A DNA stretch of 40,953 nucleotides from Escherichia phage vB_Ec_Tarrare. Location of the stretch: the sequence record OQ507919.1. The stretch is one strand, 5' to 3'. This document shows positions 106 through 40,873 of this stretch, one piece after another (the stretch's first letter is position 1; each line of letters opens with the position of its first letter). The position numbers and the translations under genes are program-made. Below the pieces are notes generated by a model. It had not been told where the DNA came from, made no database searches, and saw only the letters and a list, made by a program, of their open reading frames with translations.

Positions 106-141
106 CCTCAAGGTCATCCTGATGGGTGGCCTTTATGATTA
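106..141 (+). promoter_or_regulatory. RNase III-type processing hairpin (R0.5-like)
   Basis: cctcaaggtcatcctgatgggtggcctttatgatta; the imperfect stem aaggtcatcc / ggtggcctt and the flanking ctcaagg ... cctttatgatta recur at seven other intergenic positions in the window. Confidence 0.5.
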
Positions 142-1368: not shown

Positions 1369-4023
1369 ATGAACGCAGTAATCAACGTACAAAAGAACGA
1401 CTTTTCTGACATTGAACTGGCTGTAATCCCTTTCAACACACTGGCAGATCACTATGGTGAGAAGCTGGCTCGTGAACAGTTAGCACTTGAGCATGAGAGC
1501 TATGAGTTAGGCGAAAAGCGTTTCCTGAAAATGTTGGAGCGTCAAGTTCAGAACGGTGAACTGGCTGACAACGCTGCGGCTAAACCTCTGGTCGCTACTC
1601 TGCTGCCTAAGATGACCGCTCGTGTTAACGAATGGTTCGAAGAAGTTAAGGCTAAGCGTGGCAAGCGTCCTGTGGCCTTTCAGTTCCTGCAAACTGTGAA
1701 GCCTGAGGCTATCGCGTACATCTCTATCAAGTGCGCACTGTCTTCCCTGACTACCTCTGACAACGTGGCTGTACAAGGTGTGGCTGCTGTGATTGGCAAG
1801 GCTATCGAAGACGAAGCACGTTTCGGTCGTATCCGTGACCTAGAAGCGAAGCACTTCAAGAAGAACGTAGAGGAACAACTGAACAAGCGTGTAGGCCAAG
1901 TGTACAAGAAAGCATTCATGCAGGTTGTGGAAGCTGACATGCTCTCTAAGGGTCTGCTGGGTGGCGAAGCGTGGTCTTCATGGCACAAAGAAGACACTAT
2001 GCACGTAGGTATTCGTTGCATTGAGATGCTGATCGAGTCTACTGGTCTGGTTGTTGTTGAACGTCAAAACGCTGGCAACGCTGCGGCTGACTCTGAGGTA
2101 GTCTCTCTGGCTGATGAATACGCTGACATTATCAGCAAGCGCGCTGGTGCTCTGGCTGGTATCGCTCCAATGTTCCAACCTTGTGTAGTCCCTCCTAAGC
2201 CTTGGACGGGTATCACTGGTGGCGGCTATTGGGCTAACGGTCGTCGTCCTCTGGCTCTGGTGCGTACTCACAGCAAGAAAGCTCTGATGCGCTACGAAGA
2301 TGTTTACATGCCAGAAGTTTACAAGGCGATCAACCTTGCGCAGAATACCGCTTGGAAAATCAACAAGAAGGTACTGGCGGTAGCCAACGAGGTCACTAAG
2401 TGGGCTAACTGTCCGGTAGAGGATGTTCCGGCTATCGAACGTGAAGAGATGCCAATCAAGCCAGAAGACATTGACACTAACCCTGATGCACTGAAAGCGT
2501 GGAAGAAAGCGGCCTCCGCAATCTACCGTAAGGACAAGGCTCGCAAGTCTCGTCGCATTAGCTTAGAGTTCATGCTGGCTCAGGCCAACAAGTTCGCAAA
2601 CCACAAGGCGATCTGGTTCCCTTACAACATGGACTGGCGCGGACGTGTTTATGCGGTCTCTATGTTTAACCCGCAAGGTAACGACATGACCAAAGGTCTG
2701 TTAACGCTGGCTAAAGGCAAGCCAATCGGTAAGGAAGGTTTCTACTGGCTGAAAATCCACGGTGCTAACTGCGCTGGTGTTGACAAGGTTCCATTCCCTG
2801 AGCGTATCGCGTTCATTGAGAACAACCACGAGAACATTATGGCAAGCGCTAAAGACCCATTGAACAACACTTGGTGGGCTGAGCAGGATAGTCCTTTCTG
2901 CTTCCTAGCGTTCTGCTTTGAGTATGCAGGTGTGCAACATCACGGCCTGTCTTACAACTGCTCGTTACCTCTGGCTTTCGACGGGTCTTGCTCTGGTATT
3001 CAGCACTTCTCCGCTATGCTCCGTGACGAAATCGGTGGTCGTGCGGTTAACCTGCTGCCAAGCGAAACCGTTCAGGACATCTACGGTATCGTCGCTAAGA
3101 AAGTAAACGAAATCTTACAGCGTGACGTTATCAACGGTACAGAGAACGAACTGGTAACGACTGTAGACAAAGTGACAGGAGAAATCACAGAGAAAACTAA
3201 ACTAGGCACTAAGGAACTGGCGGGTCAGTGGCTGGCTTACGGTGTGAACCGTGGGGTAACTAAGCGCTCCGTTATGACTCTGGCTTATGGCTCCAAGGAG
3301 TTCGGTTTCCGTCAACAAGTGCTCGAAGACACCATTCAGCCAGCTATCGACTCCGGCAAGGGCTTGATGTTCACACAGCCTAACCAAGCTGCTGGGTACA
3401 TGGCGAAGCTGATTTGGGACTCTGTAAGCGTGACCGTGGTTGCTGCTGTAGAGGCTATGAAGTGGCTGCAAAGCGCTGCTAAGCTATTGGCTGCTGAGGT
3501 TAAAGACAAGAAGACTGGCGAAATCCTACGTAACCGTTGCGCGGTACATTGGGTAACTCCTGATGGCTTCCCTGTGTGGCAGGAGTACCGTAAGCCTGTA
3601 CAGACTCGCTTGAACTTGATGTTCCTTGGTCAGTTCCGTCTACAGCCAACTATCAACACAAACAAAGATAGCGGCATTGATGCACACAAACAGGAATCTG
3701 GTATCGCTCCTAACTTCGTTCACTCACAGGACGGTAGCCACCTGCGCAAAACTGTAGTGTGGGCTAACGAGAAGTACGGTATCGAGTCTTTCGCACTGAT
3801 TCATGACTCCTTCGGTACTATCCCTGCTGACGCTGGGAACCTGTTCAAAGCTGTACGTGAGACAATGGTAGATACCTACGAGTCTAACGATGTTCTGGCA
3901 GACTTCTATGACCAGTTTGCTGACCAGTTGCACGAGTCACAGTTGGATTCTATGCCTGTTCTGCCTTCTAAGGGCAACCTGAACCTACAGGACATCCTTA
4001 AGTCTGACTTCGCTTTTGCTTGA
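1369..4023 (+). CDS. 1: single-subunit DNA-directed RNA polymerase (T7 RNAP family)
   Basis: 884 aa; collinear with T7 RNAP, including the MNAVINVQKNDFSDIELAVIPFNTLADHYGE N-terminus and the C-terminal ...HESQLDSMPVLPSKGNLNLQDILKSDFAFA. Confidence 0.98.
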   Translation: MNAVINVQKNDFSDIELAVIPFNTLADHYGEKLAREQLALEHESYELGEKRFLKMLERQVQNGELADNAAAKPLVATLLPKMTARVNEWFEEVKAKRGKRPVAFQFLQTVKPEAIAYISIKCALSSLTTSDNVAVQGVAAVIGKAIEDEARFGRIRDLEAKHFKKNVEEQLNKRVGQVYKKAFMQVVEADMLSKGLLGGEAWSSWHKEDTMHVGIRCIEMLIESTGLVVVERQNAGNAAADSEVVSLADEYADIISKRAGALAGIAPMFQPCVVPPKPWTGITGGGYWANGRRPLALVRTHSKKALMRYEDVYMPEVYKAINLAQNTAWKINKKVLAVANEVTKWANCPVEDVPAIEREEMPIKPEDIDTNPDALKAWKKAASAIYRKDKARKSRRISLEFMLAQANKFANHKAIWFPYNMDWRGRVYAVSMFNPQGNDMTKGLLTLAKGKPIGKEGFYWLKIHGANCAGVDKVPFPERIAFIENNHENIMASAKDPLNNTWWAEQDSPFCFLAFCFEYAGVQHHGLSYNCSLPLAFDGSCSGIQHFSAMLRDEIGGRAVNLLPSETVQDIYGIVAKKVNEILQRDVINGTENELVTTVDKVTGEITEKTKLGTKELAGQWLAYGVNRGVTKRSVMTLAYGSKEFGFRQQVLEDTIQPAIDSGKGLMFTQPNQAAGYMAKLIWDSVSVTVVAAVEAMKWLQSAAKLLAAEVKDKKTGEILRNRCAVHWVTPDGFPVWQEYRKPVQTRLNLMFLGQFRLQPTINTNKDSGIDAHKQESGIAPNFVHSQDGSHLRKTVVWANEKYGIESFALIHDSFGTIPADAGNLFKAVRETMVDTYESNDVLADFYDQFADQLHESQLDSMPVLPSKGNLNLQDILKSDFAFA

Positions 4024-4028
4024 TGAAT

Positions 4029-4051
4029 TAATACGACTCACTATTGAGGAG
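4029..4051 (+). promoter_or_regulatory. phage RNAP promoter (phi1.1A-like)
   Basis: taatacgactcactattgaggag; T7 -17 to -1 consensus except T at -1. Confidence 0.8.
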
Positions 4052-4055
4052 TGAT

Positions 4056-4078
4056 TAATACGACTCACTAATGGGAAA
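4056..4078 (+). promoter_or_regulatory. phage RNAP promoter (phi1.1B-like)
   Basis: taatacgactcactaatgggaaa, in tandem 27 bp downstream of the first promoter. Confidence 0.8.
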
Positions 4079-4176
4079 CCTTAAGGGTCTTAGAGATTTA
4101 ACTTTAAGACCTTTAAGTTCTAATTTAAGATTTAATTTAAGATTACTAAGAGATTAACTTTAAGGAGACTTTAAGT
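4079..4176 (+). other. AT-rich region downstream of tandem promoters; candidate primary replication origin and leader of gene 1.1
   Basis: About 100 bp of low-GC sequence with reiterated tttaag / aatttaag / aactttaag units immediately after phi1.1A/B. In T7 the primary origin occupies this position. Confidence 0.4.
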
Positions 4177-4314
4177 ATGCGTAATTTTGAGAAAACTACT
4201 CGTAGCAAAGCACGTAACTGGACTTACGAAGAAGTCTACGGTAACAAAGAAGGTCGCAAGTTTAACAAGACTAAGCGTGACCGTTCTCATAAACGCAATT
4301 GGGAGGCTCAATAA
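4177..4314 (+). CDS. 1.1: gene 1.1 small basic protein
   Basis: 45 aa, MRNFEKTTRSKARNWTYEEVYGNKEGRKFNKTKRDRSHKRNWEAQ; close match to T7 gp1.1 as recalled; SD aaggag upstream. Too short for the ORF track. Confidence 0.8.
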   Translation: MRNFEKTTRSKARNWTYEEVYGNKEGRKFNKTKRDRSHKRNWEAQ

Positions 4315-4571
4315 TGGGACGTCTATACAGTGGAAACCTAAACGCATTCAAAGGTGCTTGCAATCGTCTCTATCAGATGGACTTTGCGGTAATCGTCAAT
4401 GAGTTCCACGATGCAATGTACCGTCAAGAATGCATGAAGGTACGCATAGAAGACCGAGCAGGGAACATAATCATACAGGACACCTTCTGTCACTATGACG
4501 TAGACGTCTTGTACAACACAGCCACCGCTTGGTTGAACGGTATGGCTGACCAGTTACAACACTGGAAGTAA
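4314..4571 (+). CDS. 1.2: gene 1.2 protein (inhibitor of host dGTP triphosphohydrolase)
   Basis: 85 aa from the ATG at 4314, overlapping the 1.1 stop (taATGg). MGRLYSGNL...QLQHWK matches T7 gp1.2 in length and sequence. Confidence 0.85.
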   Translation: MGRLYSGNLNAFKGACNRLYQMDFAVIVNEFHDAMYRQECMKVRIEDRAGNIIIQDTFCHYDVDVLYNTATAWLNGMADQLQHWK

Positions 4572-4591
4572 TTGAACTCACTATCGGGAGA
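4569..4591 (+). promoter_or_regulatory. phage RNAP promoter, divergent (phi1.3-like)
   Basis: taattgaactcactatcgggaga; the only candidate with C rather than T at -1 and with a weak -12 to -10 region. Confidence 0.55.
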
Positions 4592-4594
4592 ATG

Positions 4595-4622
4595 CTTAAG
4601 GTCGCTCACTGAGTGGCCTTAG
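4595..4622 (+). promoter_or_regulatory. RNase III-type hairpin (R1.3-like)
   Basis: cttaaggtcgctcactgagtggccttag; stem aaggtcgctcac / gagtggcctt. Confidence 0.5.
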
Positions 4623-4651
4623 TCGTTTAACCCTAACAGGAGACAATCATT

Positions 4652-5671
4652 ATGACTATCAAGACTAACCCATTCAAAGCTGTGTCTTTCGTAGAATCTG
4701 CCGTTAAGAAGGCTCTGGACAACGCTGGGTATCTTATCGCTGACGTTAAGTATGATGGTGTACGCGGTAACATTCTGGTCGATAACGTTTCAAATGCGCG
4801 CTGGCTCTCTCGTGTTTCTAAACCGATTCCGGCACTATCGCACTTGGACGGGTTCGACTCCCGCTGGCAGCGCCTACTGCGTGATGACCGATGCTTCTAC
4901 CCCGATGGCTTTATGCTCGATGGCGAGCTAATGGTCAAGGGCGTGGACTTCAACACTGGCTCCGGCCTACTTCGCACGAAGAACGTTAAGAAGAAGAACG
5001 AGCTACACGCTATCTATCACGATGGCGAAATGACAGACAAACTGTTCCGTCTGAACTCTAAGTTCCTTAGTGTTCGACTCTACGCAATCCTACCGATTCA
5101 CATTGTGGAATCAGGTGAGGACTTCGACGTTATGACATGCCTCATGCAAGAACACGTTAAGTATATGCTGCCTCTGCTGCGGGAATACTTTCCTGAAATC
5201 GAATGGCAAGCGGCTGAGTCTTACGAAGTGTATGACATGGTAGAACTCACTAAGCTGTACGAGAAGAAACGCGAAGAAGGTCATGAAGGTCTTATCGTTA
5301 AAGACCCATTAGGTCACTACCGTCGAGGCAAGAAGTCCGGCTGGTGGAAAATGAAGCCTGAGAACGAGGCAGACGGTATCATTCAAGGTGTTGTGTGGGG
5401 TACTGAGGGTTTAGCTAATGAAGGCAAAGTGATTGGATTTGAAGTGCTTCTAGAGAGTGGTCGCGTAGTTAACGCTTGCAACATCTCACGCGCTTTAATG
5501 GACGAGTTCACTAGCACGGTTAATACCGCTGCGGCTAAACACGAGGATGCTCCTTACATTGGGTGGGCTTGTCAGATTAGCTACATGGAAGAGACACCTG
5601 ATGGCTCTCTGCGTCACCCTTCCTTCGTTATGTTCCGTGGAACCGAAGATAACCCTACCGAAAAGATGTAA
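4652..5671 (+). CDS. 1.3: ATP-dependent DNA ligase
   Basis: 339 aa; carries the adenylation motif ADVKYDGVRG (KxDG) and is collinear with T7 ligase. Confidence 0.95.
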   Translation: MTIKTNPFKAVSFVESAVKKALDNAGYLIADVKYDGVRGNILVDNVSNARWLSRVSKPIPALSHLDGFDSRWQRLLRDDRCFYPDGFMLDGELMVKGVDFNTGSGLLRTKNVKKKNELHAIYHDGEMTDKLFRLNSKFLSVRLYAILPIHIVESGEDFDVMTCLMQEHVKYMLPLLREYFPEIEWQAAESYEVYDMVELTKLYEKKREEGHEGLIVKDPLGHYRRGKKSGWWKMKPENEADGIIQGVVWGTEGLANEGKVIGFEVLLESGRVVNACNISRALMDEFTSTVNTAAAKHEDAPYIGWACQISYMEETPDGSLRHPSFVMFRGTEDNPTEKM

Positions 5672-5678
5672 TACCCAA

Positions 5679-5708
5679 TGGCTCACCGAAAGGTGGGCCT
5701 TTTGCGTT
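5679..5708 (+). terminator. early (host RNAP) terminator TE-like hairpin plus U-tract
   Basis: ggctcaccgaaaggtgggcc followed by ttttgcgttt, immediately after the ligase stop, which is the position of TE in T7. Confidence 0.6.
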
Positions 5709-5709
5709 T

Positions 5710-5732
5710 CAATTCAACTCACTAATGGAGGA
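5710..5732 (+). promoter_or_regulatory. class II-type phage RNAP promoter
   Basis: caattcaactcactaatggagga; shares the recurring core aactcactaatggagga, whose +1 to +6 ggagga also serves as SD for the ATG 4 nt downstream. Confidence 0.5.
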
Positions 5733-5736
5733 CATT

Positions 5737-5940
5737 ATGGACTTACTGAATCCAGCTAACCCGCTCAATATGGTAAACCCTGCGTCACCTTGGTATCACG
5801 TATGGAACTCTGTACCTGAGGAATCACACACAGTGGTTACTGAACTTACCGCTGGAGAATCTTTCATTATCTACGGTATCGTAGGAGTGTTCTGCCTGAT
5901 GATCGCAGGTCTACTCTGGCTGATGCTAAGCGATATTTAA
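5737..5940 (+). CDS. small hypothetical membrane protein (gene 1.4/1.5-region ORF)
   Basis: 67 aa from the ATG at 5737 (the ORF-track start at 5725 lies inside the promoter). The C-terminal stretch FIIYGIVGVFCLMIAGLLWLML is a predicted transmembrane helix. Confidence 0.6.
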   Translation: MDLLNPANPLNMVNPASPWYHVWNSVPEESHTVVTELTAGESFIIYGIVGVFCLMIAGLLWLMLSDI

Positions 5941-5960
5941 TTAAACTCACTAATGGAGGA
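5938..5960 (+). promoter_or_regulatory. class II-type phage RNAP promoter
   Basis: taattaaactcactaatggagga. Confidence 0.6.
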
Positions 5961-5964
5961 CACA

Positions 5965-6048
5965 ATGACTTTCCTGATTATCATCATCACGATCGCTACG
6001 ATCTTTGTGTGCCTTAGCGACGACAATCATCCCGATGGTCATGCTTAA
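5965..6048 (+). CDS. 1.5: gene 1.5-like micro-protein
   Basis: 27 aa, MTFLIIIITIATIFVCLSDDNHPDGHA; hydrophobic N-terminus and a ...SDD..PDGHA tail as in T7 gp1.5 as recalled. Not in the ORF track because under 60 aa. Confidence 0.6.
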   Translation: MTFLIIIITIATIFVCLSDDNHPDGHA

Positions 6049-6068
6049 TAGAACTCACTAATGGAGGA
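6046..6068 (+). promoter_or_regulatory. class II-type phage RNAP promoter
   Basis: taatagaactcactaatggagga. Confidence 0.6.
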
Positions 6069-6072
6069 CAAT

Positions 6073-6333
6073 ATGTTTCGCTTACATTTCAACAAAAGCA
6101 TTAAGATGTTCACAGTTCGCCGCCAAGACCGCTCAATTGTATGCGCGAGCGAACGTCGAGCTAAACTTCCTATTCTTGGTAGTACAATACCTTTGGCACC
6201 TAGCGTCCACATCATCATCACTCGTGGTGACTTTCAGAAAGCAATAGACAAACAACGTCCGGTTCTTAGTGTGGCAGTGACCCGCTTCCCGTTCGTCCGT
6301 CTGTTAATCGAAAGAATCAAGGAGGTGTTCTGA
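6073..6333 (+). CDS. 1.6: gene 1.6-like protein
   Basis: 86 aa from the ATG at 6073; the conserved block [41 protein letters not shown] matches T7 gp1.6 as recalled. Confidence 0.7.
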
Positions 6334-7092: not shown

Positions 7093-7133
7093 ACTCCCCG
7101 AATCACTCAATCATTACTTTAAGGAGACTCATT

Positions 7134-7829
7134 ATGGCTAAGAAGATTTTCACCTCTGCGCTGGGTACTGCTGAACCTTACGCTTACATTGCTAAACCTG
7201 ACTACGGCAACGAAGAGCGTGGCTTTGGGAACCCTCGTGGTGTGTACAAAGTTGACCTGACTATTCCCAACAAAGACCCGCGCTGCCAGCGTATGGTCGA
7301 TGAAATCGTGAAGTGTCACGAAGAGGCTTATGCTGCTGCCGTTGAGGAATACGAAGCTAATCCACCTCAGGTAGCTCGTGGTAAGAAGCCACTGCGCCCA
7401 TACGAAGGTGACATGCCGTTCTTCGATAACGGTGACGGTACGACTACCTTTAAGTTTAAGTGCTACGCTTCCTTCCAAGACAAGAAGACCAAAGAGACCA
7501 AACACATTAATCTGGTCGTTGTGGACTCTAAAGGTAAGAAGATGGAAGAAGTGCCTGTTATCGGTGGTGGCTCAAAACTGAAAGTTAAATACTCTCTGGT
7601 TCCTTACAAGTGGAACACTGCTGTAGGTGCAAGCGTTAAGCTGCAATTAGAATCCGTTATGCTGGTCGAATTGGCTACCTTTGGTGGCGGTGAAGACGAT
7701 TGGGCTGATGAAGTCGAAGAGAACGGCTATGTTGCCTCTGGTTCTGCCAAAGCGAGCAAACCACGCGATGAAGAAAGCTGGGAAGAAGACGACTCAGAAG
7801 AACAAGTAGACGAAGACGGAGACTTCTAA
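7134..7829 (+). CDS. 2.5: single-stranded DNA-binding protein
   Basis: 231 aa, MAKKIFTSALGTAEPYAYIAKPDYG..., with the acidic C-terminal tail ...EEDDSEEQVDEDGDF characteristic of T7 gp2.5. Confidence 0.95.
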   Translation: MAKKIFTSALGTAEPYAYIAKPDYGNEERGFGNPRGVYKVDLTIPNKDPRCQRMVDEIVKCHEEAYAAAVEEYEANPPQVARGKKPLRPYEGDMPFFDNGDGTTTFKFKCYASFQDKKTKETKHINLVVVDSKGKKMEEVPVIGGGSKLKVKYSLVPYKWNTAVGASVKLQLESVMLVELATFGGGEDDWADEVEENGYVASGSAKASKPRDEESWEEDDSEEQVDEDGDF

Positions 7830-8884: not shown

Positions 8885-10931
<2,047 letters not shown>

Positions 10932-10934
<3 letters not shown>

Positions 10935-10954
10935 TACAACTCACTAATGGAGGA
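10932..10954 (+). promoter_or_regulatory. class II phage RNAP promoter (phi4.3-like)
   Basis: taatacaactcactaatggagga, overlapping the gene 4 stop. Confidence 0.65.
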
Positions 10955-10961
10955 AACAATA

Positions 10962-11174
10962 ATGTTCAAATTGATTAAGCGTTTAGGTAAGCTGGTAGTT
11001 CGTTTATATAACCGAGAAGCTACGCGACTGAATACTCAGGCTCGTGCAGAGTCCGTTATGTCTCGCTCACTGGCTGAGAAGTCCCGCGCTCTGGCTGAGA
11101 GTGCAGACAATAAGATTCGCGAAGCTGCTCACGTAGCTAACCAAGCACAACAACTGTCCAAGTTCTTTGAATAA
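10962..11174 (+). CDS. 4.3: gene 4.3 protein
   Basis: 70 aa from the ATG at 10962, MFKLIKRLGKLVVRLYN...AQQLSKFFE; matches T7 gp4.3. Confidence 0.8.
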   Translation: MFKLIKRLGKLVVRLYNREATRLNTQARAESVMSRSLAEKSRALAESADNKIREAAHVANQAQQLSKFFE

Positions 11175-11975: not shown

Positions 11976-14090
11976 ATGCTCGTTTCTGATATTGAAGCTA
12001 ACGGCCTCTTAGAGACCGTCACTAAGTTCCACTGCGGGGTAATCTATGACTACCAAACTGGTGAGTACATTAGCTATCGCCCTAGTGACTTCGGTGCGTA
12101 TCTGGATGCGCTTGAAGCCGAGGTAGCTAGAGGTGGGCTTATTGTGTTCCACAACGGGCACAAGTATGACGTCCCTGCGTTAACCAAACTGGCTAAGCTA
12201 CAGTTGAACCGTGAGTTCCATCTCCCTCGTGAGAACTGTGTGGACACCTTGGTGTTGTCTCGTTTGATTCATGCAAACTTGAAAGACACTGATATGGGTC
12301 TGTTACGTGCAGGTAAAATCCCTGGGAAAAGGTTCGGTTCCCATGCGTTGGAAGCTTGGGGCTACCGTCTAGGCGAGATGAAGGGTGAATACAAGGATGA
12401 CTTCAAGCGTATGCTGGAAGAGCAAGGCGAAGAGTATGTGGACGGCATGGAGTGGCTTGCGTTCAACGAAGAGATGATGGCTTATAACGTTCAAGACGTT
12501 GTGGTCACTAAGGCTCTCCTTGAGAAGCTACTGGCTGACAAACACTACTTCAAACCTGAGATTGACTTCACAGACGTCCATCATTCTACCTTCTGGATGG
12601 AAGCTATCGAGTCTATCGACGTTGAACATCGTGCTGCTTGGTTGCTGGCTAAGCAGGAGCGTAACGGTTTCCCATTCAACGCTAAGGCTATCGAAGACCT
12701 GTACGTAGAGTTGGCTACTCGTCGCTCTGAGTTGCTCATGAAGTTAACCGATACGTTCGGCTCTTGGTATCAACCTAAAGGTGGTACAGAGATGTTCTGT
12801 CACCCTAGGACTGGTAAGCCTCTGCCGAAGTATCCACGCATTAAGACCCCAAAGGTCGGTGGTATCTTCAAGAAGCCTAAGAACAAAGCTCAGCGTGAAG
12901 GTCGTGAACCTTGTGAGTTAGACACTCGTGAGTACGTGGCTGGTGCTCCGTACACTCCTGTAGAGCACGTTGTGTTTAACCCTTCAAGTCGTGACCACAT
13001 CCAGAAGAAACTTCAAGAAGCTGGATGGGTGCCAACTAAGTTCACCGATAAGGGTGCCCCTGTGGTGGACGATGAGGTGCTAGAAGGTGTTACTGTAGAT
13101 GACCCTGTGAAGCAATCCGCTATTGACCTGATTAAAGAGTACCTGATGATTCAGAAGCGAATCGGACAGGCTGCCGAGGGTGACAAAGCGTGGCTTCGCT
13201 ACGTACAAGAGGATGGAAAGATTCATGGTTCTGTTAACCCTAATGGGGCTGTTACCGGACGTGCTACACATGCGTTCCCAAACCTCGCACAGATTCCTTC
13301 CGTTCGTGCTGCTTATGGAGAGCAGTGCCGTAGCGCTTTTGGTGCTGAACATCATCTGGATGGTCTAACTGGTAAGCCTTGGGTTCAGGCTGGCATCGAC
13401 GCCTCAGGTCTGGAGTTGCGCTGCTTGGCTCACTTCATGGCTCGCTTCGATAACGGTGAGTACGCTGATGAAATCCTCAACGGTGATATTCACACTAAGA
13501 ACCAGATGGCTGCTGAGTTACCTACTCGTGATAACGCTAAGACCTTCATCTACGGTTTCCTTTATGGTGCTGGCGATGAGAAGATTGGTCAAATCGTTGG
13601 TGCTGGTAAGGAACGTGGTAAGGAACTCAAGAAGAAATTCTTAGAGAACACTCCGGCTATCGCTGCTCTCCGTGAGTCAATCCAACAGACGCTTGTTGAG
13701 TCCTCTCAATGGGTAGCTGGTGAACAGCAAGTCAAGTGGAAACGCCGTTGGATTAAAGGTCTGGATGGTCGTAAGGTTCACGTTCGTAGTCCTCATGCTG
13801 CCTTGAATACTCTGCTGCAATCTGCTGGTGCTCTTATCTGCAAACTGTGGATTATCAAGACCGAAGAGATGCTCGTAGAGAAAGGCTTGAAGCATGGCTG
13901 GGATGGTGACTTTGCGTACATGGCATGGGTACACGATGAAATTCAGGTAGCTGCCCGTACCGAAGAGATCGCTAAGGTGGTCGTAGAGACTGCTCAGGAA
14001 GCTATGCGCTGGGTAGGAGACCACTGGAACTTCCGTTGTCAATTGGACACCGAAGGTAAGATTGGCCCGAACTGGGCTGTATGTCATTAA
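11976..14090 (+). CDS. 5: DNA polymerase (family A, 3'-5' exonuclease plus polymerase, thioredoxin-binding type)
   Basis: 704 aa, same length as T7 gp5; MLVSDIEANGLLETVTKFHCGVIYDY (exo I motif DIEANG) and C-terminal ...IGPNWAVCH. Confidence 0.98.
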   Translation: MLVSDIEANGLLETVTKFHCGVIYDYQTGEYISYRPSDFGAYLDALEAEVARGGLIVFHNGHKYDVPALTKLAKLQLNREFHLPRENCVDTLVLSRLIHANLKDTDMGLLRAGKIPGKRFGSHALEAWGYRLGEMKGEYKDDFKRMLEEQGEEYVDGMEWLAFNEEMMAYNVQDVVVTKALLEKLLADKHYFKPEIDFTDVHHSTFWMEAIESIDVEHRAAWLLAKQERNGFPFNAKAIEDLYVELATRRSELLMKLTDTFGSWYQPKGGTEMFCHPRTGKPLPKYPRIKTPKVGGIFKKPKNKAQREGREPCELDTREYVAGAPYTPVEHVVFNPSSRDHIQKKLQEAGWVPTKFTDKGAPVVDDEVLEGVTVDDPVKQSAIDLIKEYLMIQKRIGQAAEGDKAWLRYVQEDGKIHGSVNPNGAVTGRATHAFPNLAQIPSVRAAYGEQCRSAFGAEHHLDGLTGKPWVQAGIDASGLELRCLAHFMARFDNGEYADEILNGDIHTKNQMAAELPTRDNAKTFIYGFLYGAGDEKIGQIVGAGKERGKELKKKFLENTPAIAALRESIQQTLVESSQWVAGEQQVKWKRRWIKGLDGRKVHVRSPHAALNTLLQSAGALICKLWIIKTEEMLVEKGLKHGWDGDFAYMAWVHDEIQVAARTEEIAKVVVETAQEAMRWVGDHWNFRCQLDTEGKIGPNWAVCH

Positions 14091-20124: not shown

Positions 20125-20136
20125 TGAGGTATAAAT

Positions 20137-39075: not shown

Positions 39076-39133
39076 GATTCACTTTAGGCCACGGAAGGCC
39101 AATACCCTAAGTTGTTGAATAGACACGATAAAT

Positions 39134-39519: not shown

Positions 39520-40010
39520 GAGTCAAGTCCTAAGGTTATACCTATAGGCCCTCTAATGGTCTATCCTAAGGTCTATACCTAAGGGTAGGCCATACCTATT
39601 GGCTACCTAGAGATAAGCCTAAGGAGGCTCCTAGAGAGGCCCTAAGGAGTCCTTTAAAATATACCATAAAAATCTGAGTGACTATCTCATAGTTTAAACA
39701 TTTGGATTTACCCCCATAGGGTCACTTCAAGTCCCATAAAGACATCCCCATCCTAAGGTTTCTACTCAAAGAGAGACCATAGGAGACCTTGAGAGACCAT
39801 AAAGAGGTGGGTAGTGTGGTACTTTGAGTTATCTATAAGTGTGTCTCTATGTGTTCCTATCTGTTATCACTCCTAAGGTATCCTCTTAAGGTCATATCCT
39901 AAGGTCATCTCTTAAGGTATCAACATAAGGAGGAGGAGACTACACTTAAAGTATATACATAAAGACCACATAAAGACCATACATAAAGTGTATACATAAA
40001 GATGCCTTGT
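39520..40010 (+). repeat. genome-end non-coding region with arrays of short direct repeats (cctaaggt / ccataaag / cataaagac units)
   Basis: No ORF of 60 aa or more; reiterated heptamer-like units such as tcctaaggt (at least 6 copies) and cataaaga (4 copies at 39950-40000), corresponding to the CCTAAAG / CATAAAGAC arrays inside and next to the T7 terminal repeat. Confidence 0.6.
39685..39877 (+). repeat. approximate single-copy terminal repeat / concatemer junction (physical genome ends)
   Basis: tctcatagt ... acccccataggg ... gtgtctctatgtgttcctatctgttatcactcctaagg parallels the T7 terminal repeat (TCTCACAGTGT...CCCCCATAGGGGG...GTCTCTCTGTGTCCCTATCTGTTACAGTCTCCTAAAG) as recalled. Boundaries are inferred. 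Confidence 0.3.
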
Positions 40011-40837: not shown

Positions 40838-40873
40838 ACTCAAGGTCATCCTGATGGGTGGCCTTTATGATTA
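40838..40873 (+). promoter_or_regulatory. RNase III-type hairpin upstream of gene 0.3 (R0.3-like)
   Basis: actcaaggtcatcctgatgggtggcctttatgatta; 35 nt identical to the site at 107-141. Confidence 0.5.

What the first reader, a model, noticed from the sequence alone, without database searches (positions are those of the whole stretch)
4079..4176. Candidate primary replication origin: AT-rich reiterated tttaag block behind tandem promoters
About 100 bp of low-GC sequence with repeated ttaag-type units lies immediately downstream of two tandem phage promoters and upstream of gene 1.1, the arrangement of the T7 primary origin.
Basis: partly seen in the sequence, partly recalled or inferred. Interest (0 to 1): 0.3.

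Follow-up and report, generated by a model that had tools for sequence, protein, structure and literature searches.

The report
T7-type replication origin homologue, compact variant
This AT-rich repeat block behind two phage promoters is the counterpart, in a new T7-like phage, of the well-studied primary replication origin of phage T7; it also serves as the leader of the gene 1.1 mRNA, so the finding is real but largely ordinary.

Summary
Positions 4079-4176 hold the most AT-rich and least stable DNA of the whole 40,953-base window. They carry 7 TTAAG units, against about 1 expected from composition. They start right after two tandem T7-type promoters (+1 at 4046 and 4073) and end one base before the ATG of gene 1.1. 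Upstream is the RNA polymerase gene; the phage also encodes T7-type SSB, primase-helicase and DNA polymerase. The region aligns with the T7 primary origin far better than chance.

It differs from T7 in four ways:
- The promoters are 27 bp apart instead of 75, because the R1.1 RNase III hairpin is missing.
- The block is 20 bp longer, through two insertions of about one repeat unit each.
- The repeats form a 20-bp hairpin at the 5' end of the transcript.
- The only canonical primase site (GGGTC) lies on the opposite strand.

Related phages across the subfamily show the same layout of promoter, 5' hairpin, ACTT(T/A)AAG units about 11-12 nt apart, and Shine-Dalgarno sequence, whatever gene follows. 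The block is therefore two things at once: a probable transcription-primed origin and an mRNA leader. Origin activity is inferred by homology and was not tested. It is a new member of a known kind, of low interest.

The parts
1369..4023 (+). Gene 1, T7-type single-subunit RNA polymerase (884 aa). Its specificity-loop sequence is almost identical to that of T7.
   Evidence: ORF. Pfam PF00940 and PF14700. Sequence read.
4029..4051 (+). phi1.1A-like phage promoter, TAATACGACTCACTATT|GAGGAG, +1 = 4046. Positions -17 to -1 are identical to the phage's strong-promoter consensus. The initial transcribed sequence GAGG matches T7 phi1.1A.
4056..4078 (+). phi1.1B-like phage promoter, TAATACGACTCACTAAT|GGGAAA, +1 = 4073. 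It lies 27 bp downstream of the first start site.
4079..4176 (+). AT-rich reiterated block: 6 TTTAAG and 1 CTTAAG, with units 9-14 nt apart (one 23-nt gap). It has the lowest GC, the weakest DNA duplex and the weakest RNA:DNA hybrid of the window. It is homologous to the AT-rich region of the T7 primary origin.
4074..4121 (+). Hairpin of 16 + 4 bp formed by the repeat units (inverted repeat 4080-4095 / 4102-4117, 6-nt loop). It sits at the 5' end of the phi1.1B transcript. RNA folding energy -22.5 kcal/mol, z = -5.4.
   Evidence: Flagged as terminator-like.
4085..4089 (+). GGGTC, the only canonical T7-type primase recognition sequence, (G/T)(G/T)GTC, between 4046 and 4176. It lies on the non-template (displaced) strand. 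In T7 the single site in the AT-rich region is on the other strand.
   Evidence: T7 sequence. Literature: PMC2910064, PMC12839067.
4112..4144 (+). Tandem repeat, period 12 (TTTAAGATTTAA), 2.8 copies.
4154..4167 (+). [quoted passage not shown]
   Evidence: Literature: PMC8748333.
4177..4314 (+). Gene 1.1 (45 aa).
   Evidence: Pfam PF08200.
4314..4571 (+). Gene 1.2 (85 aa, dGTPase-inhibitor family). Its start overlaps the gene 1.1 stop (TAATG).
   Evidence: Pfam PF10922. Sequence.

Best explanation
The segment 4029-4176 is the counterpart of the bacteriophage T7 primary origin of replication in a new T7-like phage.

Proposed mechanism, by analogy with T7 (inferred, not tested here):
1. The phage RNA polymerase starts at either of the two tandem promoters (+1 at 4046 and 4073) and transcribes rightward into the AT-rich block.
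2. There the DNA duplex and the nascent RNA:DNA hybrid are the weakest of the genome. The phage DNA polymerase, helped by the primase-helicase, takes over the 3' end of a short transcript as primer for rightward synthesis.
3. The helicase-primase loads on the displaced strand and primes leftward synthesis, making replication bidirectional.

The same bases also form the 5' leader of the gene 1.1-1.2 mRNA: a 5' hairpin (4074-4121), an AU-rich stretch, an enhancer-like TTAACTTTA and a Shine-Dalgarno sequence. The TTTAAG units are therefore a reiteration of the phage's usual leader and ribosome-binding-site motif, and that reiteration is what produces the long AT-rich tract.

Shown here: anatomy, homology, composition and stability extremes, and the encoded enzymes. 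Inferred: that replication starts here.
For: Homology.
- The region aligns with T7 5790-6030, which carries the annotated promoters phi1.1A and phi1.1B and gene 1.1.
- The leader alignment scores 89, against a null of 18.7 +/- 8.2 with a maximum of 44.
- The gene order is the same: RNAP, promoters, gene 1.1, gene 1.2, ligase.

Literature on T7.
- Replication starts from the origins phi1.1A and phi1.1B and requires a T7 RNAP promoter (PMC8373140).
- The origin holds an A/T-rich cluster with a single primase site (PMC2910064, PMC12839067).
- The helicase helps the DNA polymerase acquire the RNA primer from the RNAP (PMC5997990).

Physical extremes.
- The block has the lowest GC of the window.
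- It has the weakest DNA duplex, z = 4.8.
- It has the weakest RNA:DNA hybrid, z = 5.3-5.5.
- It is the only place in the window where two full promoters lie 27 bp apart.

Machinery. T7-type RNAP, SSB, primase-helicase with zinc ribbon, and family A DNA polymerase are all encoded.

Position. It lies about 13% of the genome from the predicted left end at 39685, against about 15% in T7 (inference).

Conservation. A block of a promoter plus ACTT(T/A)AAG repeats follows the RNAP gene in most of the ~77 distinct related loci, with TT(T/A)AAG and TTAAG units enriched roughly 20-60 fold over the flanking sequence. Between window and T7 the block differs mainly by insertions or deletions of about one unit (10 and 11 nt). 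Third-codon positions of the adjacent gene are only 59% identical.
Against: - No experiment or marker-frequency data were available. GC skew rises monotonically and shows no origin signal.
- In T7 the primary origin is dispensable and secondary origins exist (PMC8373140). Other combinations of a promoter with an AT-rich tract in this window could therefore also fire: after the promoters at 39131, 40046 and 15798.
- The TTTAAG unit is not specific to origins. Elsewhere in the window it sits next to Shine-Dalgarno sequences in ordinary leaders, at 7118, 15846 and 32278/32290. The AT-rich tract after the phiOR-like promoter lacks it.
- The RNA:DNA hybrid here is unusually weak relative to the DNA duplex. 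A persistent R-loop is therefore not thermodynamically favoured. The parameters for that calculation were recalled from memory.
- The high identity of aligned columns (92%) is inflated by low complexity; the null gives 80%.
Confidence: 0.7

Rival explanations
1. The block is essentially an RNA element. It would be the 5' untranslated leader of the gene 1.1-1.2 mRNA: a protective 5' hairpin followed by AU-rich, enhancer-like and SD-like units that recruit ribosomes (through S1 or as standby sites). Replication would start elsewhere, or would not depend on these units.
For: - The last unit is always fused to the Shine-Dalgarno sequence, in the window and in all relatives.
[quoted passage not shown] It occurs four times in the window, always on the + strand, twice in this block and once each in the leaders after the promoters at 20134 and 32224.
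- TTTAAG elsewhere sits in leaders next to SD sequences.
- Of 40 distinct 50-nt leader starts tested, 26 fold at z < -2, and most of those show a hairpin starting at +1/+2 built from different sequences.
- All 6 TTTAAG are on the transcribed-sense strand.
Against: - It does not exclude origin function; in T7 the same bases serve both roles.
- Gene 1.1 is a 45-aa protein, and nothing suggests it needs the longest and most AT-rich leader in the genome.
- The block is kept when the downstream gene is a different one.
- Two tandem promoters are not explained by translation.
Confidence: 0.2
2. The 20-bp hairpin 4074-4121 replaces the missing R1.1 site as an RNase III processing signal. It would separate gene 1 mRNA from gene 1.1 mRNA in early host-polymerase transcripts.
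For: - The T7-type hairpin between the two promoters is absent here. The AAGGTC...GGCCTT hairpin type occurs four times in the window but not at this locus.
- The window instead has a hairpin of 16 + 4 bp, z = -5.4. That is close to the ~20-22 bp helix of RNase III substrates (PMC3867540).
Against: - Many relatives have neither R1.1 nor a long hairpin here, only 7-10 bp 5' hairpins. An RNase III site at this position is therefore not required.
- The hairpin lacks the internal loop typical of T7 sites.
- Proximal-box and distal-box rules could not be evaluated.
Confidence: 0.12
3. The hairpin plus the T-rich tail (4080-4117, then TTCTAATTTA) acts as a weak terminator or attenuator. It would release short transcripts of about 50 and 77 nt from the two promoters, either as replication primers or to limit read-through into genes 1.1-1.3.
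For: - The consensus scan flags it as terminator-like, with 16 pairs.
- The downstream hybrid is the weakest in the genome.
- In T7, short transcripts are reported to serve as primers (recalled from Fuller & Richardson 1985; not read here).
Against: - Only 5 of 16 pairs are G-C, and the T run is interrupted.
- Genes 1.1-1.3 must be transcribed through it.
- Relatives, including T7, lack a comparable stem followed by a T run.
Confidence: 0.08
4. The reiterated units are iteron-like binding sites for a sequence-specific protein, phage or host, that opens the origin.
For: - Units recur at 9-14 nt, mostly 11-13, about one helical turn, across clades. Autocorrelation in the window peaks at lag 23, z = 3.5.
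- The unit differs in concert between clades: ACTTTAAG versus ACTTAAAG.
Against: - No origin-binding initiator is known or evident in T7-like phages. T7 initiation has been reconstituted with RNAP, DNA polymerase and gene 4 protein only (titles and statements cited in PMC8373140 and PMC5997990).
- Concerted change is also what repeat slippage and unequal exchange would produce.
- The units are short (6-8 nt).
Confidence: 0.05

Closest known systems
Bacteriophage T7 primary origin of replication (promoters phi1.1A and phi1.1B plus the AT-rich region, T7 positions ~5830-6006)
   Same: - Same position: between gene 1 and gene 1.1.
- Two tandem rightward phage promoters, with homologous initial transcribed sequences.
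- A homologous AT-rich block with the conserved cores CCTTAAGG, TTTAACTTTAAGACC, ATTACTAAGAGA and GACTTTAAGTATG.
- A single canonical primase site.
- The same replication enzymes encoded.
   Different: - Promoter start sites are 27 bp apart instead of 75, because the ~48-bp segment holding the R1.1 RNase III hairpin is absent.
- The block is 98 nt instead of 78, through insertions of 10 and 11 nt.
- The extra 10 nt create a 16-bp inverted repeat.
- GGGTC is on the + strand here and on the - strand in T7.
- Position -1 of the promoters is T rather than A.
The same locus in Stenotrophomonas phage IME15 (L002), Escherichia phage Ebrios (L084) and Yersinia phage vB_YenP_Rambo (L083)
   Same: - Tandem promoters without the R1.1 hairpin (IME15 and Ebrios, 40 bp apart).
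- A TTTAAG-rich block before gene 1.1.
- Rambo shares the 3' half of the block, including the extra ATTAAC(C)TTTAAG unit, at 84.6% identity.
   Different: - Promoter spacing is 40 bp (IME15, Ebrios) or 124 bp with a small ORF in between (Rambo).
- None of them has the long 16-bp inverted repeat.
- None of these records annotates an origin.
[quoted passage not shown]
   Same: The 3' end of the block, TTAACTTTAAGGAG followed by 9 nt and then ATG, has the same enhancer 9-mer and layout (PMC8748333).
   Different: - Here the motif is reiterated (a second full copy at 4098 and four more TTTAAG) over about 100 nt.
- It lies behind two promoters.
- It precedes a 45-aa gene rather than the major capsid gene.
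Transcription-primed origins in general (ColE1 RNA II, mitochondrial LSP/CSB, E. coli oriK/cSDR)
   Same: A promoter-driven transcript is proposed to supply the leading-strand primer (PMC8373140 discusses the parallel).
   Different: Those systems rely on a stable, G-rich RNA:DNA hybrid processed by RNase H. Here the hybrid is the weakest of the genome, which points to direct hand-over rather than a persistent R-loop.

Membership tests
T7-type primary origin (phi1.1A/phi1.1B + AT-rich region) | Located directly downstream of the phage RNA polymerase gene and upstream of gene 1.1 | tested here: met
   Gene 1 at 1369-4023 and gene 1.1 at 4177-4314.
T7-type primary origin (phi1.1A/phi1.1B + AT-rich region) | Two tandem, rightward promoters for the phage RNA polymerase | tested here: met
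   4029-4051 and 4056-4078 match the phage's own consensus, with 0 matches expected by chance.
T7-type primary origin (phi1.1A/phi1.1B + AT-rich region) | AT-rich tract immediately downstream of the promoters | tested here: met
   25.5% GC. This is the minimum of the whole window for GC and for duplex stability.
T7-type primary origin (phi1.1A/phi1.1B + AT-rich region) | Sequence homology to the T7 origin | tested here: met
   Alignment. Score 89 against a null of 18.7 +/- 8.2.
T7-type primary origin (phi1.1A/phi1.1B + AT-rich region) | Single primase recognition sequence within the origin (PMC2910064) | tested here: inconclusive
   Exactly one (G/T)(G/T)GTC lies in 4046-4176 (GGGTC at 4085-4089), but on the opposite strand from T7. 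One site in ~130 nt is not unlikely by chance, at 3.8-4.7 sites per kb per strand. The T7 site is reported as not used for priming (PMC12839067).
T7-type primary origin (phi1.1A/phi1.1B + AT-rich region) | Cognate enzymes encoded: RNAP, DNA polymerase, primase-helicase, SSB | tested here: met
   Pfam hits for all four.
T7-type primary origin (phi1.1A/phi1.1B + AT-rich region) | First replication bubbles or RNA-to-DNA transitions map here | not testable with these tools
   This needs marker-frequency sequencing, electron microscopy or in vitro initiation. GC skew is uninformative.
T7 RNase III site R1.1 | Hairpin of the AAGGTC...GGCCTT type with an internal loop, between the two promoters | tested here: not met
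   The ~48-bp T7 segment is absent. The motif is found at 110, 4598, 11485 and 40842 but not here. The alternative 20-bp hairpin 4074-4121 was not tested as a substrate.
g10RBS-type translational leader | A/U-rich 9-nt enhancer UUAACUUUA upstream of an SD at working distance from the ATG | tested here: met
   TTAACTTTA at 4154-4162, AAGGAG at 4162-4167, ATG at 4177. Enhancer activity itself was not tested.
Intrinsic terminator | G+C-rich stem followed by an uninterrupted U run | tested here: inconclusive
   Flagged by the scan, but only 5 of 16 pairs are G-C and the tail TTCTAATTTA is interrupted.
Iteron-type origin | Repeats of ~17-22 bp bound by a dedicated initiator protein encoded by the replicon | tested here: not met
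   The unit cores are 6-8 nt. The genes checked around the locus (1.1, 1.2, ligase) and the replication genes gave no initiator-type family, only RNAP, SSB, primase-helicase and DNA polymerase domains. Protein binding itself is not testable here.

The most novel reading that the evidence does not exclude
The ACTT(T/A)AAG array would be a sequence-read element rather than mere AT-rich filler. It has a period of about 11-12 nt, is conserved behind the first phage promoter after the RNA polymerase gene across the Studiervirinae, and changes in concert between clades. It might mark defined RNA-to-DNA switch points or act as a loading array for the primase-helicase. In this phage the unit-built hairpin, with GGGTC exposed on the displaced strand, would add built-in priming of the leftward fork inside the origin, which T7 lacks.
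Probability: 0.1. Interest if true: 0.55.

Novelty: new member of a known kind. Interest (0 to 1): 0.2.

Why it matters
The result adds a compact natural variant to the classic T7 origin. The two promoters are 27 bp apart, there is no RNase III site, there is one extra repeat unit, and the primase site is inverted. Comparison across relatives shows which parts of the locus vary freely (promoter number and spacing, R1.1, unit number) and which are kept (a promoter, a 5' hairpin, ACTT(T/A)AAG units, fusion to the SD). That helps in designing minimal T7-type origins for cell-free replication systems and in annotating origins in T7-like genomes, where no record inspected here annotates one. It does not change what is understood about T7 replication.

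Tried and rejected
- Rfam scan of 3000-6000 at a permissive threshold gave only chance-level snoRNA and miRNA hits with E > 1. No known RNA family is present.
- GC skew and cumulative skew rise monotonically, as expected for a one-direction transcribed T7-like genome, with no origin signal.
- The sigma-70 promoter scan found nothing inside the block.
- A chance or low-complexity artefact is rejected by shuffles of the block and of the alignment partner.
- I first took 92% identity of aligned columns as evidence of strong constraint. The shuffle control gives 80% on average, so only the alignment score and the unit-sized indels are used as evidence.
- Primary papers could not be read because they are not held: Saito 1980, Romano 1981, and Lee & Richardson 2011. 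Statements about transcript lengths used as primers and about R1.1 at T7 position 5887 rest on my recollection of Fuller & Richardson 1985 and Dunn & Studier 1983.
- A full-text search for the motif returned only pET-vector primer sequences.
- BLAST of the T7 left end against the window returned nothing. The predicted left end at 39685 rests on reading the sequence and on recalled similarity to the T7 terminus.
- No close relative (>90% identity) exists in the phage collection, so within-species conservation could not be assessed.

Full report
**What the window is**

The window is the genome of a T7-like phage (Studiervirinae, close to Teseptimavirus). Its best matches in the phage collection are T7 and its relatives. 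They reach only about 78% identity over about 75% of a 24-kb query, and 78-81% around the locus, so the phage is not a known species. Gene 1, the single-subunit RNA polymerase, lies at 1369-4023. Gene 1.1 is at 4177-4314, gene 1.2 at 4314-4571 and the ligase at 4652-5671. The SSB is at 7134-7829, the primase-helicase at 9225-10934 and the DNA polymerase at 11976-14090. All have clear Pfam matches.

The phage's own promoter consensus is TAATACGACTCACTATTGGGAGA. It is found at seven further sites, with none expected by chance. A second class of promoters ends in ...ACTCACTAATGG.

**Check of the observation**

- **Composition.** Positions 4079-4176 are 25.5% GC, against 47.3% overall. The lowest-GC 98-nt stretch of the whole window, 22.4%, is 4090-4187. 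Nearest-neighbour duplex stability is also lowest here at 40, 60 and 100 bp, with z about 4.5-4.8.
- **Repeat density.** The block has 7 TTAAG, 6 of them TTTAAG, all on the + strand. No other 98-nt stretch has more than 3. Dinucleotide-preserving shuffles of the block give 1.0 on average, and 0 of 2000 reach 7. The reiteration is therefore more than AT-richness.
- **Internal structure.** There is a 12-nt tandem repeat at 4112-4144. A ~30-nt direct repeat pairs 4089-4118 with 4146-4176, with 27 of 32 columns identical. A 16-nt inverted repeat pairs 4080-4095 with 4102-4117.
- **Promoters.** Immediately upstream lie two full promoters, at 4029-4051 (+1 = 4046) and 4056-4078 (+1 = 4073).

**Homology with the T7 primary origin**

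The region aligns with T7 5790-6030, which carries the annotated promoters phi1.1A (5848) and phi1.1B (5923) and gene 1.1 (6007). For the stretch from +7 to the ATG, the alignment score is 89. Alignment with dinucleotide-shuffled T7 sequence gives 18.7 +/- 8.2, with a maximum of 44. Conserved cores are CCTTAAGG, TTTAACTTTAAGACC, ATTACTAAGAGA and GACTTTAAGTATG.

The literature available here says the following about T7:

[quoted passage not shown] - The origin contains an A/T-rich cluster with a single GGGTC primase site, which is reported as not used for priming (PMC2910064, PMC12839067).
- The helicase helps the DNA polymerase acquire the RNA primer from the RNAP (PMC5997990).

**Differences from T7**

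1. The two start sites are 27 bp apart instead of 75. The ~48-bp T7 segment between them is absent. That segment folds into the hairpin GGUCAUUCGCAAGAGUGGCC, which I recall as RNase III site R1.1. Hairpins of that type, AAGGTC...GGCCTT, occur at 110, 4598, 11485 and 40842 in the window but not at this locus.
2. The block is 98 nt instead of 78, because of two insertions of 10 and 11 nt, each about one repeat unit.
3. The 10-nt insertion creates the inverted repeat. The phi1.1B transcript would therefore begin with a hairpin of 16 + 4 bp at 4074-4121, with -22.5 kcal/mol and z = -5.4. The same hairpin forms in the phi1.1A transcript. As single-stranded DNA it is weaker, -8.9 kcal/mol and z = -2.2.
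4. The only canonical primase site in 4046-4176 is GGGTC at 4085-4089 on the + strand. In T7 the site is on the - strand, read as GACCC on the + strand. A + strand site would template a leftward primer on the displaced strand. At 3.8-4.7 sites per kb per strand, however, one site in this interval is not statistically remarkable.

**Comparative picture**

I fetched 80 related loci by the C-terminus of the RNA polymerase, giving about 77 distinct sequences.

- **Common layout.** In most of them the RNAP gene is followed by one or more phage promoters, usually a hairpin starting at +1/+2, and several ACTTTAAG units. The Klebsiella-phage clade has ACTTAAAG instead. The last unit is fused to the Shine-Dalgarno sequence.
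- **Hairpins.** Of 40 distinct 50-nt leader starts tested, 26 fold at z < -2. Most of those show a hairpin built from different sequences.
- **Unit spacing.** Spacing is 9-14 nt, mostly 11-13. In the window, autocorrelation peaks at lag 23, z = 3.5.
- **Downstream gene.** The block is kept whether the next gene is 1.1 or an unrelated ORF of about 186 aa.
- **Exceptions.** A few phages (L058, L062, L072) have a promoter, an R1.1-type hairpin and gene 1.1 with no units.
- **Tandem promoters.** Two promoters occur only in the T7 group and its nearest relatives. Their spacing varies widely: 27 bp in the window; 40 bp in IME15 (L002) and Ebrios (L084); 71-77 bp in the T7 group, with R1.1 in between; 124 bp with a small ORF in Rambo (L083). 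One phage, L017, has three promoters.

The locus therefore varies in promoter number, promoter spacing and unit number, but is constant in its basic plan.

**The block is also an mRNA leader**

Its 3' end reads TTAACTTTAAGGAG, then 9 nt, then ATG. [quoted passage not shown] A second TTAACTTTA lies at 4098. The only two other copies in the window are in the leaders after the promoters at 20134 and 32224. Outside the block, TTTAAG in noncoding sequence sits next to SD sequences after phage promoters, at 7118, 15846 and 32278/32290. The AT-rich tract after the phiOR-like promoter (39131) has no TTTAAG.

I conclude that the units are the phage's ordinary leader and ribosome-binding-site motif. Their reiteration, probably by unit-sized slippage, is what builds the exceptional AT-rich tract. 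Origin function and leader function are not exclusive; in T7 the same bases serve both.

**Most likely mechanism (inferred from T7, not tested here)**

The phage RNAP starts at 4046 or 4073 and enters the block. There both the DNA duplex and the nascent RNA:DNA hybrid (using recalled nearest-neighbour parameters; z = 5.3-5.5) are the weakest of the genome. The elongation complex is then least firmly held. The DNA polymerase, with the helicase, can take the transcript's 3' end as primer for rightward synthesis. The primase-helicase on the displaced strand then primes leftward synthesis.

Because the hybrid is weak relative to the duplex, I favour direct hand-over over a persistent R-loop. The position is about 13% from the predicted left end at 39685, if the window is a circularly permuted whole genome. 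In T7 the origin lies at about 15%.

**Rivals**

- **RNA-only leader role.** This is supported by the features above, but it does not explain the tandem promoters or the retention of the block before different genes.
- **RNase III site.** The hairpin could substitute for R1.1, since a ~20-bp helix approaches the substrate length given in PMC3867540. Many relatives manage without any such site here.
- **Weak terminator.** The hairpin plus T-rich tail is flagged as terminator-like, but it is AU-rich and the T run is interrupted.
- **Iteron-like protein binding.** This is suggested only by the near-helical periodicity and the concerted unit change between clades. No initiator protein is evident.

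**Verdict**

The element is a new member of a known kind, with modest variant features. Interest is low.

Noticed in passing
window 107-141 and 40839-40873: A 35-nt exact repeat containing an RNase III-type hairpin (AAGGTCATCCTGATGGGTGGCCTT) lies near both ends of the window. These are probably two processing sites in the early region rather than a terminal duplication, because the surrounding sequence does not repeat.
   Followed up: partly
window 39685-39740: TCTCATAGTTTAAAC...CCCCCATAGGG resembles the left terminus of T7 DNA as I recall it. It lies between a phiOR-like promoter (+1 = 39151) and a phiOL-like promoter (+1 = 40066). The window therefore looks like a circularly permuted assembly of the whole genome, with the physical end near 39685.
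   Followed up: partly
window 4569-4620: A phi1.3-like promoter (AATTGAACTCACTATC|GGGAGA, +1 = 4586) is followed directly by an R1.3-type hairpin (AAGGTCGCTCACTGAGTGGCCTT) before the ligase gene. The RNase III site type missing at the origin is therefore present about 500 bp downstream.
   Followed up: partly
window 5707-5737, 6043-6073, 10929-10962: Three promoter-like sequences (…ACTCACTAAT|GGAGGA…) place the predicted transcription start only 10-13 nt before an ATG, so the initial transcribed sequence GGAGGA would double as the Shine-Dalgarno sequence.
   Followed up: no
L007 (IMGVR_UViG_3300009034_000458), after the RNAP stop: The T7 RNAP gene ends in a truncated phi1.1A promoter (CAATACGACTCC) joined to GGATCC and unrelated sequence. 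This looks like a cloned T7 gene 1 cassette (laboratory construct or DE3-type insert) filed as a viral contig.
   Followed up: no
L017 (IMGVR_UViG_2974600872_000001) and L083 (Yersinia phage Rambo, 23-146): L017 carries a tandem triplication of the promoter, with the R1.1-type hairpin between successive copies (three promoters 74 bp apart). Rambo has a small ORF of about 30 codons inserted between its two promoters. The inter-promoter space is a hotspot for rearrangement.
   Followed up: partly
H55, OL964748.1 (a T7 record), match 4200-4527: The match to window 3950-4330 is about 75 bp shorter than in other T7 records. This may be a deletion between the two directly repeated promoters.
   Followed up: no
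L058, L062, L072 (Klebsiella-type phages): In these loci the promoter after the RNAP gene is followed by an R1.1-type hairpin and gene 1.1, with no ACTTAAAG units. Their relatives carry the units in front of a ~186-aa membrane-like ORF instead. The units therefore travel with that upstream module.
   Followed up: no
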